Source: Antedon mediterranea (taxonomy: Eukaryota > Animalia > Echinodermata). From it: a DNA stretch of 64,000 nt. The position numbers and the translations under genes were made by a program. Below, piece by piece: positions 2,368-11,114 of the stretch (positions are counted from its first letter, which is position 1; each line of letters starts with the position of its first letter). Location of the stretch: positions 992,001-1,056,000 of the forward strand of contig NC_092674.1 of the NCBI RefSeq assembly GCF_964355755.1, read 5' to 3'. The notes beneath the pieces were generated by a model. That model did no database searches, was not told the DNA's origin, and was given only the letters and a program-made list of their open reading frames with translations.

Positions 2368-5300
2368 TCCATGCAAAAATTAAAGTAAATTTTTGTTTGT
2401 AAATTTCTACCACATTTCAAAAGATTAAATAAATAATAGATAGAAATAGTTCAAAATATTGTTCTTGTAATTAAAATTATAATAATATAAAATTGTAAAT
2501 AATATGCTAAGCTAGAGTTAGTTTTTAGGCCCTCTCTTGCCGCGAGTCTCGCCTGGCTCAGTTTAGGCTGCTGGTGGTCTAGAAAGTAACAATTTACCTC
2601 CAGAGAGCTGGTAGACTAGGTAGGGACCTAGGCCTAGCCTACCTAGCAGTAGGTGGACCTAGCCTAGTACTAAAACTATACCAAGTAAACAAAATGCTAA
2701 AGATTGTTCTTGGAAGACAACATGTTAATATTTCATAGCATATTAATTATAGCAATTCCATCTTTTTTATATTTTCAGTCACAAGCAATACAGAGCTTTG
2801 TTGAAAAAAGAAAAGAGAAAGAGAAAAAGACAAGAAGCAGCAAGACTTAGGCAAGGAGGTAATGTACTTTGATGATCACACCAGGGGGTTGATGGGTAGG
2901 AGGCAGGAAGGTCAGATTTCAAACTCCTGAACCTGCCTCTGAACACCTATTTTTAATTATAGTTGTGCACATCTATGTAATATTAAATTGTGTATTATTA
3001 TGACGAAAAAAATTTTCTACAAAACTTTGTCTACACTATCAAAAATAGAGACAAAAATTACAACAAATTATCATCTTAGACTAAGAGTACATTATTAAAA
3101 TCTAAACTATGTTAAAAATGAATTTATAAAATGGTCAACAATAAATTTTATCTAGGAAAAATACAATAATTATTGAGACACACTTTTAGTTGCTTTATAA
3201 CATTATTGTTTGTATATTTGTAATTTATTAGAAGAATCTTTACAAGGAAAAAGTGAAGATGAAGAAGAAGAAGAAAATGATTTACAAGAACAGGAGGAGG
3301 TTAAAAGGTAAAAAAAACAGTTTTAACAATTTCATTTTTTTTTATTAATCATTGAATGTGTTTGGAATTGATTGCTTTGGCTTATCAATATTTAAATTAT
3401 ATTGTTTATTAATCATTGAATGTGTGTGTCTTACCAATGATTTGTGTTTCTTTAGCCAGCTTCTTTAGTCTCAAATACTTTAGTACCGATATTGTGATAT
3501 ATCTGGATAGGTATCACATACTTCTCTTTGTTGTTTTTGTTTAGGGAAAGGGCTCATTGTGCCTGGCTTCAGAGAGAAAGAGTAGCACAGATTTTATTTG
3601 AAAAGAAAAAAGAACAAGAAACAGAATGGAAAGAACAGCAGAAGGAAGCTGAGGTAATGCTGACATTAAGACAAATAACATTTCTATCATGTGAACTTAT
3701 TTCATAGACAAATGAATAACACAACATAACAATATTTTATGATAATTTCAGAGAAAAATAGAGGAAGAATTGGAACGGCAGAAGGCCATGGAAGAAGAGT
3801 TCCTGAGTAGTAGCACTGCTAAGAAGACAAAGAAAGAGAAATTACTTGAGGTGAAAATGAGGACAAAAGGATAACAAGATTTCTATATCCACTATCAAAT
3901 TTTATTTGTTAATGTATTTTATATGTGTTTATTTTATATACAGTGTTATATTATTATAGGCACTACATCATACATACACATCATCATATCATTATTATCC
4001 TCATCATCATATCATTATTATCCTCATCATCATATTATTATTATCCTCATCATCATCATATTATTATTATCCTCATCATCATCATATCATTATTATCCTC
4101 ATCATCATATCATTATTATCCTTATCATCATATCATTATTATCCTCATCATCATATTATTATTATTATCCTCATCATCATCATATTATTATCCTCCTCCT
4201 CCTCATCATCTTTATCATTATTATTATCATCATCATCATATTATTATTATCCTCATCATCATCATTATCATCGTCATCATCATATCATTATTATCATCAT
4301 CATCATTGTCATCATCATCATTATTATCCTCCTCATCAGCATTACAGGAGATCAGAATCATTGTCAGATTACTCATCATCTTTATCAAAATCATTATCAT
4401 AATCATTGTCTGGTTTTTAGATTAAATACTATCTATTTATTACAATGTATTTCCTTAACTGCTGAAATGGATACTTGGTAAATTACACCTGTATGCAAAT
4501 GAAATGTTCCAGTTATTCACAGCTGATTCCTGTATCTTTTTATAATTAATATCAAGGACCTTTTTTTTTTTTAACCAGTGGCAGAAACTTTATTACTTTT
4601 GTTTCTTTTGTTCATTATATATAGATCATAAAATCTATTCACTGTTGTCTGATGTTCATCGTAAAATTGTTACTATCATCTTTGAATTTACAGTAAAATA
4701 ACATTCGACATAATGTTTTCCCAATAATTAATTTGCACACATTTGGTTTCCTACAATACTTAACATTTCCTTCAGCTTCTGTGAAATTTGTACATTCTAT
4801 ATATTTCCCAGGATGCTTTGCATATTTTAAGTGATGAGGATGATAGGAATGAGGAGAACATGGTAAGTAATTTGATCATTCTTATTTGCTTTAGCCAATC
4901 AAAACTACATTACCAACCCGTCTATTAATTGCAAGCTTTTTTTTTTCTTCAAACGGAGTAAATTCCTTATATTGATTCAGTTAATTTATTTTGCTCTTTT
5001 TTTTTGCTTTTCTCCATTAAATAGAATCAACCAACACATAATCCCGAAGCGCCAAAACATCTGGAAAGGAAACAAGAGGAGTGTATGTTTTATCTTAAAA
5101 CAGGAGCATGTCGATTCGGAAACAGGTCAGTTTTGTAAAAAAATCGTGATTAATTATGAAATTGAAATGCTGATGGTGGTTTTGATTGATATAATGAGTA
5201 AAAACCAATATTTTATCTTGTTCTGAAGGTGTTCATGTCATCATCCTTACCCTATTATTAGTACAACACTTTATCTTGTTGTGAAGGTGTTCACGTCATC

Positions 5301-8300: not shown

Positions 8301-11114
8301 TTAACCAATATGTTATCTTGTTCTAAAGGTGTTCACGTCATCATCCTTACCCTATTATTAACCAATATGTTATCTTGTTCTGAAGGTGTTCACGTCATCA
8401 TCCTTACCCTATTATTAACCAATATGTTATCTTGTTCTGAAGGTGTTCACGTCATCATCCTCACCCTATTATTAACCAATGTGTTATCTTGTTCTGAAGG
8501 TGTTCACGTCATCATCCTTACCCTATTATTAGTACAACACTTTATCTTGTTCTGCAGGTGTTCACGTCATCATCCTTACCCTATTATTAGTACAACACTT
8601 TATCTTGTTCTGAAGGTGTTCACGTCATCCTCCTTACCCTATTATTAGTACAACACTTTATCTTGTTCTGAAGGTGTTCACGTCATCATCCTTACCCTAT
8701 TATTAACCAATATGTTATCTTGTTCCGAAGGTGTTCACGTCATCCTCCTTACCCTATTATTAGTACAACACTTTATCTTGTTCTGAAGGTGTTCACGTCA
8801 TCATCCTTACCCTATTATTAACCAATATGTTATCTTGTTCTGAAGGTGTTCACGTCATCATCCTTACCCTATTATTAACCAATATGTTATCTTGTTCTGA
8901 AGGTGTTCACGTCATCATCCTCACCCTATTATTAACAAATATGTTATCTTGTTCTGAAGGTGTTCACGTCATCATCCTCACCCTATTATTAACCAATATT
9001 TTATCTTGTTCTGAAGGTGTTCACGTCATCATCCTTACCCTATTATTAGTACAACACTTTTAATACGAGGTATGTTCACATGTTATTCTATGGAGCAAAG
9101 CTATAGAGATGAGTATGATGCTGATATTGCACTAGAGTTTGATGAAACAGAAACTCACACAGCCTTCCTTGAATTCTATGATGATGTGTTAGCAGAGTTC
9201 AGAAAAGCTGGCAAGGTTGTTCAGTTTAAGGTATACAATCTGTTTTTCTGCATACAATGATAACATTTTCATAAATACAATAACAAAAAGAAAGCAAAAA
9301 ATTATCAATTATTAAAATTTTATTTCAACTAGGTGTGTAAAAATTGGGAATCTCATTTGCGAGGTAATGTGTATGTTGAGTTTGAAAGCGAGGCAAGTTG
9401 TAGCAGTGCTTTCAGTATGTTTAACGCCAGATTCTACGCAGGTAGACAGATGTCGTGTGAATACTCCCCAGTAACTAATTGGAAAGCTGCTATTTGTGGT
9501 AAGTATATCTTATCAATAAATATTCAAATGCATTTAAATAATTGTGTACTGCATTCTATGTGTTTTATATTTTGTTGTGGTATTGAGTGGCACCGGATAC
9601 TTGTTTGGGTTCAATTCCTGTACTGGTAAAATATTTAATTTTGCAATTTATTTTGATTAAATGCTCAAATTTTACCAATTATTTTAAGTACATCAAATCT
9701 TTATAAATTCTTTTCTTCTATAGGTTTGTTTTACCAGAAGAAATGCCCAAAAGGAAAGAATTGCAATTTTCTTCATGTATTCAGAAATCCAGGAAATGAG
9801 TTTTTCGAGTCTGATCGAGCATCAGGTATGAGGGGTTCACAGAGAGGGGATTGGAGCAGTCGGCGGTCACATATGGGAAGTGAAAGAAGTTTCAGGACTC
9901 GCCATAGATGGCATTCAAGAGATGATGAAAGAGAGTATAGTAGGCGGCGACACAGAAGTAGAAGCAAAGACCGGCGGCGTAGAGGGAGCAAGGAGAGAAG
10001 AAGGAGCAGAAGTCACAGTAGGGAAAGAAATAGAAGTAAGAGTAGAGAAAGGCACAGAAAAAGGAAGAAAAATCAAAGTAAAGAAAGATATTCAAACAGG
10101 GATGATGTCAAGAGAAGTGAACGTAGCAGAAGTAAAGATAGATCAAGAAGTAAAAGCAGAGAGAGAAAACAAATTAAAGGAAGAAGTAGTAAAAGTAGAG
10201 ATAGATCAAGAAGTAACAGCAAAGAGAAAAAACAAATTAAAGGACGAAGTAGCAGAAGTAGAGATAGATCAAGAAGTAACAGCAGAGAGAGAAAACAAAT
10301 TAAAGAAAGAAGTAGCAGAAGTAGAGATAGATCAAGAAGTAACAGCAGAGAGAGAAAAGAAATTAAAGGAAGAAGTAGCAAAAGTAAAGATAGATCAAGA
10401 AGTAACAGCAGAGAGAAAAAACAAATTAAAGGACGAAGTAGTAAAAGTAGAGATAGATCAAGAAGTAACAGCAGAGAGAGAAAACAAATTAAAGAAAGAA
10501 GTAGCAGAAGTAGAGATAGATCAAGAAGTAACAGCAGAGAGAAAAAACAAATAAAAGGAAGAAGTAGCAGAAGTAGAGATAGATCAAGAAGTAACAGCAG
10601 AGAAAGAAAGCAAGAGATGCGCAAAGAAAGAAGGTCTCGTAGTCAAAGTAGAGAAACAGCACATTATCAAATACACAGTAATTCCACAAGTCCAGAAGAA
10701 CGTTCTAGAAGATCTAGAAGTTGCAGCAGAGAAGCAATTCAACGTTCAAAAAGATCACAAAGTAGAAAAAGAGACGGTAAAAAGCAAAGTCATTCAAAGA
10801 GTAATTCTATAAATTCAATTTACGAGAGAGAAATAAAACTTGAAAAAATACCGAAACAAGCATCACCTAACCAAATGGATAGATCTGGGAGCAGTCCATT
10901 AGAAGGGTCAAAAGGGTCATGTCAGAAAGAAACAAACTTTATAGTAAGCAATATTAAACAATTGCTAGAAGAGAAATACATGAATAAACATAAAAAATCG
11001 AAGCATAAAAAACACAAGAAAGACAAAAGGGTTAATACAAAACTTAACGAAATGATTGATGATCATAATTCAGAAAGTGGAAAAAAGTCTGCTAAGAATG
11101 GTAAAGATTATTAA
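2359..11114 (+). CDS. ZRSR2: U2AF35-related splicing factor ZRSR2/URP (coiled coil, CCCH zinc finger, UHM/RRM, CCCH zinc finger, long RS domain); 10 coding exons
   Basis: Exons ~2359-2384, 2779-2858, 3232-3307, 3545-3653, 3752-3850, 4812-4862, 5025-5125, 9017-9230, 9333-9498, 9724-11114, all GT-AG. Translation gives HKQYRALLKKEKRKRKRQEAARLR, CMFYLKTGACRFGNRCSRHH, FLEFYDDVLAEFRKAGKVVQFKVCKNWESHLRGNVYV, FNARFYAGRQMSCEYSPVTNWKAAICG..CPKGKNCNFLHVFRNP, matching vertebrate ZRSR2 motifs. Confidence 0.95.
3962..4405. repeat. Low-complexity (TCA/TTA)n compound microsatellite in ZRSR2 intron 5
   Basis: Degenerate catcatatcattattatcct repeats; the two overlapping ORFs are artefacts. Confidence 0.9.
5203..9060 (+). 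repeat. 57/58-bp tandem array (~67 copies) built from the ZRSR2 intron 7 acceptor plus the start of exon 8
   Basis: Unit ttatcttgttctgaAG|gtgttcacgtcatcatccttaccctattatta followed by accaatatg (57 bp) or gtacaacact (58 bp); last copy runs directly into the unique coding exon (CSRHHPYPIISTTLLIRGMF). Confidence 0.97.
10128..10610 (+). repeat. Coding 60-bp tandem repeat (~8 copies) in the ZRSR2 RS domain
   Basis: 20-aa unit SRDRSRSNSRERKQIKERSS / SKDRSRSNSREKKQIKGRSS in ORF 9726-11114. Confidence 0.9.

What the first reader, a model, noticed from the sequence alone, without database searches (positions are those of the whole stretch)
5203..9060. About 67 tandem copies of a 3' splice site inside the gene for a 3'-splice-site recognition factor (ZRSR2)
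Seen: every 57/58-bp unit carries the pyrimidine tract, AG and first 32-42 nt of exon 8 (CSRHH, the last two ligands of zinc finger 1). In the ZRSR2 frame any 57-bp unit reads CSRHHPYPIINQYVILF-stop and any 58-bp unit stops in the following unit, so only the last acceptor (9017) yields protein with UHM, ZnF2 and RS domain. Established: ZRSR2/URP acts at 3' splice sites (especially U12-type) and splicing factors often autoregulate through unproductive splicing and NMD. Inference: the cell must skip ~66 near-identical decoys, so this is either a copy-number-tunable poison-acceptor array/sponge or a tolerated expansion solved by exon definition from the downstream donor at 9231.
Basis: partly seen in the sequence, partly recalled or inferred. 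Interest (0 to 1): 0.85.

Follow-up and report, generated by a model that had tools for sequence, protein, structure and literature searches.

The report
Splice-acceptor "mirage" repeat in ZRSR2
In a marine invertebrate (likely a feather star), the boundary between an intron and an exon of the splicing-factor gene ZRSR2 is copied 67 times in a row; a close relative has one copy and most of the RNA seen lacks the repeat, so it is likely a tolerated repeat of a kind already described in lancelets, not a control switch.

Summary
There are 67 AG|GT acceptors at 5229-9017 in intron 7 of a 10-exon, 770-aa ZRSR2 gene, and only the last gives an open frame. The array is real DNA: in a DNA run its k-mer depths follow the assembled unit counts (r = 0.996, 5 contigs), and an RNA run from a second study holds array k-mers. 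A relative about 3.6% diverged has one acceptor and a short intron, so the array is young. In the RNA run, array k-mers reach about 6% per copy of the mRNA depth, near the intronic background; contigs cannot show which acceptor is used. The structure matches the published lancelet "mirage" (tandem copies of an intron-exon boundary). A donor-side mirage lies in three unrelated neighbouring genes of this window, and this scan noted acceptor mirages in other genomes. Autoregulation is unsupported: intron 7 is U2-type, human ZRSR2 binds U12-type sites, and the array is not conserved. Best reading: a tolerated minisatellite, likely bypassed by exon definition from donor 9231. Still open: the array could be heterozygous and leaky, or mis-splices could be corrected by re-splicing at a regenerated CAG|GT.

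The parts
2359..11114 (+). ZRSR2/URP gene, 10 coding exons (2359-2384, 2779-2858, 3232-3307, 3545-3653, 3752-3850, 4812-4862, 5025-5125, 9017-9230, 9333-9498, 9724-11114), 770 aa
   Evidence: open frame, GT-AG; homology; RNA joints for introns 6, 8, 9 and exon 7 to a unit start
5025..5125 (+). Exon 7 (first CCCH finger up to R|C), donor CAG|GTCAGT, U2-type
5126..5228 (+). Ancestral-length intron 7 (103 nt to the first acceptor); the related organism B runs through this stretch without an indel straight into exon 8
   Evidence: X8 and X6 each have one 2016-nt contig over 4672-5272 with a loose end that is the true exon 8 continuation
5203..9060 (+). Mirage array: 67 acceptors AG|GTGTT; 40 units of 57 bp and 26 of 58 bp plus the last; 15 variable sites of 68; mean pairwise difference 1.9%
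6765..8554 (+). Higher-order duplication inside the array: 975-bp period with 815 bp of exact identity (recent unequal exchange inferred)
8991..9016 (+). Last (functional) acceptor; the only one of 67 with both a TTAAC branch-like motif within 30 nt and T at -17; -3 is A as in 66 of 67
9017..9230 (+). Exon 8, 214 nt (end of zinc finger 1, start of the UHM/RRM), closed by donor AAG|GTATAC at 9231

Best explanation
This is a young minisatellite made of head-to-tail copies of the intron 7/exon 8 boundary of ZRSR2 (a lancelet-type "mirage"), and it is likely tolerated because the spliceosome likely picks the last acceptor, the one paired with the donor 214 nt downstream. Shown: the unit anatomy, the stops, the presence of the array in DNA, its absence in a close relative, and that most ZRSR2 RNA in one run lacks it. 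Inferred origin: two local duplications with different breakpoints (57 and 58 bp) copied the boundary, and unequal exchange then mixed and amplified them, most recently as a 975-bp block. Inferred splicing: exon definition favours the acceptor nearest donor 9231, since exons from acceptors 64 to 1 would be 385-4002 nt. The nearest decoys (8960, 271 nt; 8903, 328 nt) are the likeliest leaks. Leak products carry early stops and would likely be removed by NMD. No regulatory role is needed.
For: (1) Real DNA: in run X1 the five short array contigs have depths of 61-148 against 6.5 and 2.05 for the flanks. Depth over the k-mer multiplicity in the assembled array is 3.1-3.6 for all five (r = 0.996). 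(2) Young: organism B (DNA runs X8 and X6, two samples of one study; RNA run X9) has one contig from intron 5 through exon 7 into exon 8 and no multi-copy contigs, at 40 differences in 1120 nt. (3) RNA run X5 (same organism, other study): exon 6-7-unit contig depth 39.3, exon 8-9-10 contig 38.5, array cycle 61.4. With the window's composition that is 2.2 per copy, 5.7% of the mRNA depth; about 1070 would be expected if all mRNA used the first acceptor. An intron-5 piece in the same run has depth 4.0. (4) No sign of selection on decoy AGs: all 67 are intact, but with 15 variable sites of 68 that has P = 0.60. (5) A 61-bp donor-side mirage with 4, at least 7, and 2 donors lies in three paralogous genes in this window. 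(6) Lancelet mirages have the same anatomy and were reported not to disturb splicing (PMC3087553, PMC3902484, passages).
Against: Which acceptor is used is not shown: contigs collapse the units into a cycle, and the exon 7 joint fits any unit. Array k-mers are present in RNA (61.4), while unique introns 8 and 9 have no contig in that run, so some decoy use or retention is possible. The depth model fits only roughly: it implies a local mRNA depth of 21, not 39. The tool warns that contig depth is no copy number. The X1 per-copy depth (3.29) is half the downstream flank (6.5), which would also fit an array on one haplotype only; the clean mRNA could then come from an array-free allele. Seven of the eight other introns are 98-394 nt, a size at which intron definition would favour the first acceptor (recalled). 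NMD would hide decoy use in steady-state RNA. The RNA evidence is one run.
Confidence: 0.74

Rival explanations
1. Leaky or hypomorphic allele: the array segregates, perhaps heterozygous, and sends a large part of its transcripts to decoy acceptors and NMD. The array-free or shorter allele supplies most of the mRNA. It is unselected or mildly deleterious, not regulatory.
For: X1 per-copy depth of 3.29 is half the 6.5 downstream flank. Array k-mers are in RNA. The neighbouring introns are short. Published mirages vary between haplotypes (6 and 3 units in BflGb6).
Against: The upstream flank depth is 2.05, so 3.3 also lies between the flanks. The array is seen in two samples from two studies (X1, X5). 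It has persisted long enough to gather two unit types, 15 variable sites and a higher-order repeat, which is unlikely for a null allele of a gene called essential in zebrafish (PMC9501576, listing only).
Confidence: 0.12
2. Self-correcting ratchet: splicing to any decoy regenerates CAG|GTGTT at the exon 7 junction. A second splice from that site to a later acceptor removes the extra units and ends in the same correct mRNA, so the cell need not skip 66 decoys in one step.
For: Every unit starts with GT, so the geometry is exact. The regenerated donor matches 5 of 9 consensus positions, as do the two weakest real donors of this gene. Weak regenerated sites can be re-spliced in Drosophila cells (PMC8184009, passages).
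Against: That paper shows the exon junction complex normally blocks such re-splicing. The correct 7/8 junction and the 8/9 and 9/10 junctions also regenerate GT and must stay silent. No intermediate was observed or could be tested with contigs.
Confidence: 0.06
3. Regulatory poison-acceptor array or sponge: ZRSR2 level or array length tunes decoy use and NMD as feedback.
For: All 66 decoys give early stops. Tandem-repeat length can modulate splicing in humans (PMC10078293, passages). Unproductive-splicing autoregulation is common among splicing factors (recalled).
Against: Early stops are the default for intron-containing units. The array is not conserved in organism B. Intron 7 is U2-type and ZRSR2 binds U12-type sites. 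A search for ZRSR2 + autoregulation + poison exon + nonsense-mediated gave 7 review-type listings, none with ZRSR2 in title or abstract (listings only). Mirages occur in unrelated neighbours.
Confidence: 0.06
4. Assembly artefact: the array is invented or much inflated.
For: An 815-bp exact internal repeat; X1 may be the assembly's own sample; the T at 5236 is not seen in any laid contig.
Against: Contig depths reproduce the relative abundance of 57- and 58-bp junctions. A second study's run holds the 58-bp cycle. An error of up to about twofold in copy number is not excluded.
Confidence: 0.02

Closest known systems
Amphioxus "mirage" minisatellites: globin BflGb6 (acceptor side), BflGb9, Adh3, troponin C, PGBD5 (PMC3087553 and PMC3902484, passages read; the original Adh3 paper was not held and not read)
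   Same: [quoted passage not shown]
   Different: 67 acceptors against 3-6 units in BflGb6; two interleaved unit lengths and a 975-bp higher-order repeat; a likely crinoid host; the host gene is a splicing factor; a close relative dates the array as young.
Human F7 IVS7 37-bp VNTR (PMC1557585, abstract read)
   Same: A VNTR spanning an exon-intron boundary, with identical pseudo-sites that are functional but silent; the site next to the real exon wins.
   Different: Donor side, where the authentic site is the first copy; here it is the acceptor side and the open site is the last of 67.
Recursive splicing and re-splicing at regenerated AG|GT sites (PMC8184009 passages; PMC8605326 listing)
   Same: Each acceptor is directly followed by GT, so a donor is regenerated after splicing.
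   Different: The regenerated donor is weak (5 of 9), comes from ordinary exon sequence, and no recursive intermediate is shown.

Membership tests
Mirage minisatellite | Head-to-tail repeats whose unit spans an intron-exon boundary | tested here: met
   units of 26+31 or 16+42 nt of intron+exon 8
Mirage minisatellite | Repeat units keep splice signals (AG/GT) | tested here: met
   AG|GT in 67 of 67
Mirage minisatellite | Regular splicing is not disturbed | tested here: inconclusive
   spliced exon 7-10 RNA dominates in one run (array about 6% per copy), but acceptor choice, allele and the NMD-hidden fraction are unresolved
Mirage minisatellite | Length instability or polymorphism | tested here: inconclusive
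   Internal 975-bp duplication and absence in organism B show turnover; allele lengths within the species were not measurable with contigs
Mirage minisatellite | Concerted evolution inside, boundaries excluded | tested here: met
   T at -17 only in the first and last of 41 57-type junctions, G in 39; mean pairwise difference 1.9%
ZRSR2/URP family (host gene) | CCCH finger - UHM/RRM - CCCH finger - RS tail, with ZRSR2 as best hits | tested here: met
   (RRM and second finger are weak Pfam hits on single exons; 79% identity over 196 aa to P0022)
Autoregulatory poison exon / unproductive splicing | Alternative product with a premature stop | tested here: met
   predicted for 66 of 66 decoys; no such transcript shown
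Autoregulatory poison exon / unproductive splicing | Conservation across related species | tested here: not met
   absent in organism B (one related species, two DNA samples)
Autoregulatory poison exon / unproductive splicing | Use depends on the encoded factor and rises under NMD block | not testable with these tools
   needs perturbation and long-read cDNA
U12-type intron (ZRSR2 substrate) | RTATCCT donor and TCCTTRAC branch point near the acceptor | tested here: not met
   donor GTCAGT; no RTATCCT in 2359-11114; no TCCTTRAC in the array (57 near-matches TCCTTAC come from exon codons)
Recursive splice sites (ratchet points) | Acceptor directly followed by GT | tested here: met
Recursive splice sites (ratchet points) | Regenerated donor is used (intermediates, several lariats) | not testable with these tools
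   only contigs were available; donor match 5 of 9

The most novel reading that the evidence does not exclude
The array is not skipped in one step but read as a ratchet: exon 7 splices to a decoy, the junction regenerates CAG|GT, and re-splicing walks to the last acceptor. Copy number then sets the yield of ZRSR2 mRNA, and so of minor-spliceosome activity, in this species.
Probability: 0.08. Interest if true: 0.75.

Novelty: new member of a known kind. Interest (0 to 1): 0.27.

Why it matters
As a tolerated mirage it is an extreme natural substrate for 3' splice-site choice: 67 near-identical acceptors, one productive, in a gene that should not tolerate loss, with a close relative carrying the one-acceptor state as a control. 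It would test exon definition against intron definition and re-splicing. It does not show a new regulatory system. It would matter much more if decoy use proved tunable or recursive.

Tried and rejected
Own-genome search: no genome is held, so no genome-wide count of mirages was possible. The first gene model had wrong boundaries and was corrected. Read-through of the array as a long coding exon: rejected, every decoy frame stops. U12-type intron 7: rejected. RNA structure as the reason decoys are hidden: three units fold no better than shuffles (-16.4 against -20.1 +/- 3.4; -25.7 against -23.1 +/- 3.1 kcal/mol; mononucleotide shuffles). Selection on decoy AGs: not detectable. The joint 5123>5227 is not evidence for first-acceptor use, because all units begin alike. 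No X5 contig for the 57-bp junction, for the unique part of intron 7 or for introns 8 and 9: not taken as absence, since contigs drop variants. The run search listed no holder on record as RNA; X5 and X9 are treated as RNA because their contigs skip introns at GT..AG. Only 5 of the 10 listed runs were laid (X1, X5, X6, X8, X9), on two flanks, not on the array as a whole. Pfam gave no hit for 4 of 4 single exons of the neighbouring paralogues, so 'YWTD/LRP-like' is read by eye from the motifs. The 2002 Adh3 mirage paper is not held. A search for duplicated-acceptor experiments gave nothing useful, so the exon-definition argument rests on recall. The search 'mirage, minisatellite, amphioxus' gave 2 papers; the crinoid search listed 10 of 93, none with the word crinoid. 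No supplements were read.
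Full report
Observation. TRF reports an array at 5203-9048, period 57, 67.0 copies, 93% matches. A script found 67 AG|GTGTT acceptors from 5229 to 9017. The 66 units before the last are 40 of 57 bp and 26 of 58 bp. The 57-bp unit is the last 26 nt of intron 7 plus the first 31 nt of exon 8; the 58-bp unit is 16 plus 42 nt. 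Joined to exon 7, 66 of 67 acceptors meet a stop within 18-49 codons, and only 9017 is open to the donor at 9231. The array has 15 variable sites of 68, a mean pairwise difference of 1.9%, and a 975-bp higher-order duplication with 815 bp of exact identity.

Host gene. Ten GT-AG exons give one 770-aa ORF. Exon 7 hits zf-CCCH (E 2.7e-6); exon 9 (RRM_1) and exon 10 (CCCH) hit weakly. The one hit for exon 8 is a named ZRSR2, and the 117 hits for the second finger are ZRSR2 where named. Among those 117 proteins the best is P0022, 79% identical over 196 aa, against about 50% for the fish proteins. Its organism name is cut at 'Anne'. Anneissia is a genus with that start and a feather star (recalled), so the host is likely a crinoid. 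This is an inference.

Is the array real? Ten runs hold the 3' part of the gene; I laid five of them on the two flanks. In X1 (unspliced, organism A) the flanks have depths 6.5 and 2.05, and five short array contigs have 61-148. Dividing each by its k-mer multiplicity in the assembled array gives 3.1-3.6 (slope 3.29, r = 0.996). The five contigs are not independent, X1 may be the assembly's own sample, and the tool warns that depth is no copy number. Still, the reads reproduce the ratio of unit types. X5, from another sample and study, also holds the 58-bp cycle. One ambiguity remains: 3.29 lies between the flank depths but is also half of 6.5, so the array may lie on one haplotype only.

Age. 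Organism B (X8 and X6, two samples of one study) has a single 2016-nt contig that runs from intron 5 through exons 6 and 7 and the short intron 7 into exon 8, where its loose end is the true exon 8 continuation. The same X8 contig covers 8991-10110 with 40 differences in 1120 nt and flat depth. X9, spliced RNA of organism B, is one 2950-nt contig with no array contigs. The one-acceptor state is therefore ancestral and the array young. This rests on one related species.

Splicing. X5 skips introns 6, 8 and 9 at GT..AG and joins exon 7 to a unit start. The depths are 39.3 (exons 6-7 to unit), 38.5 (exons 8-10) and 61.4 (array cycle). With the window's composition this is 2.2 per copy, 5.7% of the mRNA depth; about 1070 would be expected if all mRNA used the first acceptor. 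An intron-5 piece has depth 4.0 in the same run, so ordinary pre-mRNA or DNA background is enough to explain it. Against this: the model implies a local mRNA depth of 21 instead of 39; introns 8 and 9 have no contig; no 57-bp junction contig was seen (bubble removal in contig building could explain that; recalled, not tested); NMD would hide decoy use; and the allele of origin is unknown. Most steady-state RNA lacks the array; which acceptor is used, and in how many steps, is not shown.

What marks the last acceptor? In sequence, little. It is the only one of 67 that has both a TTAAC branch-like motif within 30 nt and T at -17. T at -17 occurs in the first and last of 41 57-type junctions, and G in the other 39. 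Organism B has G there. A boundary effect explains this as well as selection does. The clearer difference is position: only the last acceptor makes a 214-nt exon with donor 9231; the next give 271, 328 and 385 nt. Exon definition is therefore the likeliest mechanism (recalled principle; one search found no paper to cite). Seven of the eight other introns are 98-394 nt, which argues the other way. All 67 AGs are intact, as chance allows (P = 0.60).

Is the link to ZRSR2 special? Probably not. Intron 7 begins GTCAGT, and the gene has no RTATCCT donor. [quoted passage not shown] In the same window a 61-bp unit made of an exon end, a GTGAGT donor and intron is repeated in three paralogous genes, with 4, at least 7, and 2 donors at 21782, 41792 and 56116. 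This genome makes boundary repeats without regard to gene function.

Comparison with what is known. [quoted passage not shown] PMC3902484 adds PGBD5 and troponin C (passages). The human F7 IVS7 VNTR is the donor-side case (PMC1557585, abstract). I found the mirage paper through my own search. The scan's earlier notes, 8 shown of 11, list similar arrays of 8-37 copies in other genomes; they are unchecked AI notes and are not used as support. None was listed for this genome. My searches showed no description of this locus or of a crinoid mirage, within a library that lacks most subscription papers.

Most novel reading. Each unit starts with GT, so splicing to any decoy regenerates CAG|GTGTT, and a second splice to a later acceptor would give the correct mRNA. 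The regenerated donor matches 5 of 9 consensus positions, like the two weakest real donors of the gene. Weak regenerated sites can be re-spliced, but the exon junction complex normally prevents it (PMC8184009, passages), and two other junctions of this gene also regenerate GT. I give a ratchet or tunable role about 0.08.

Verdict. The array is a new and unusually long member of a known kind, most likely tolerated (0.74). Interest 0.27.

Noticed in passing
window 21782-22026, 41792-42239, 56116-56233: Donor-side mirage: a 61-bp unit of exon end + GTGAGT donor + intron, with 4, at least 7, and 2 donors, in three tandem paralogues that look YWTD/LRP-like by eye (no Pfam hit on single exons).
   Followed up: partly
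window 10123-10613: In-frame 63-bp repeat (7.8 copies) expands the RS domain of ZRSR2 by 21-residue units.
   Followed up: no
protein P0022 (residues about 140-285 and 284-479): The closest named ZRSR2 record holds the zinc finger 1-UHM region twice: an internal duplication or a gene-model or assembly error around the same exons.
   Followed up: no
window 4452-4461 (intron 5): A perfect U12-type branch-point motif (TCCTTRAC) without a U12 donor in the gene. RNA run X5 has a low-depth contig over 4420-4566. Possibly chance, possibly a cryptic site.
   Followed up: partly
window 5236: The assembly has T (R>C in unit 1); every laid contig of X1, X5, X6 and X8 has C. It may be an allele, an assembly error or a variant dropped from the contigs.
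   Followed up: partly
window 4862 (organism B): Organism B has G>T at the last base of exon 6 and T>C at 4861, next to the donor.
   Followed up: no
window 8558: One decoy has the better CAG acceptor (A>C at -3), the only one of 67; it is a candidate leak site giving a 673-nt exon.
   Followed up: no
window about 14744-17950: Divergent TCTP-family gene next to ZRSR2 (PF00838, E 1.5e-11), with a 20-bp array of 21 copies in an intron.
   Followed up: partly
window 11435-13129: Two groups of 20/40/52-bp arrays appear as mirror images (11435-12029 and 12563-13129), like the long inverted ends of a mobile element.
   Followed up: no
window 1-839 and 1780-1851: A 101-bp array (8.4 copies) with internal inverted repeats; a partial unit recurs about 1 kb away.
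   Followed up: no
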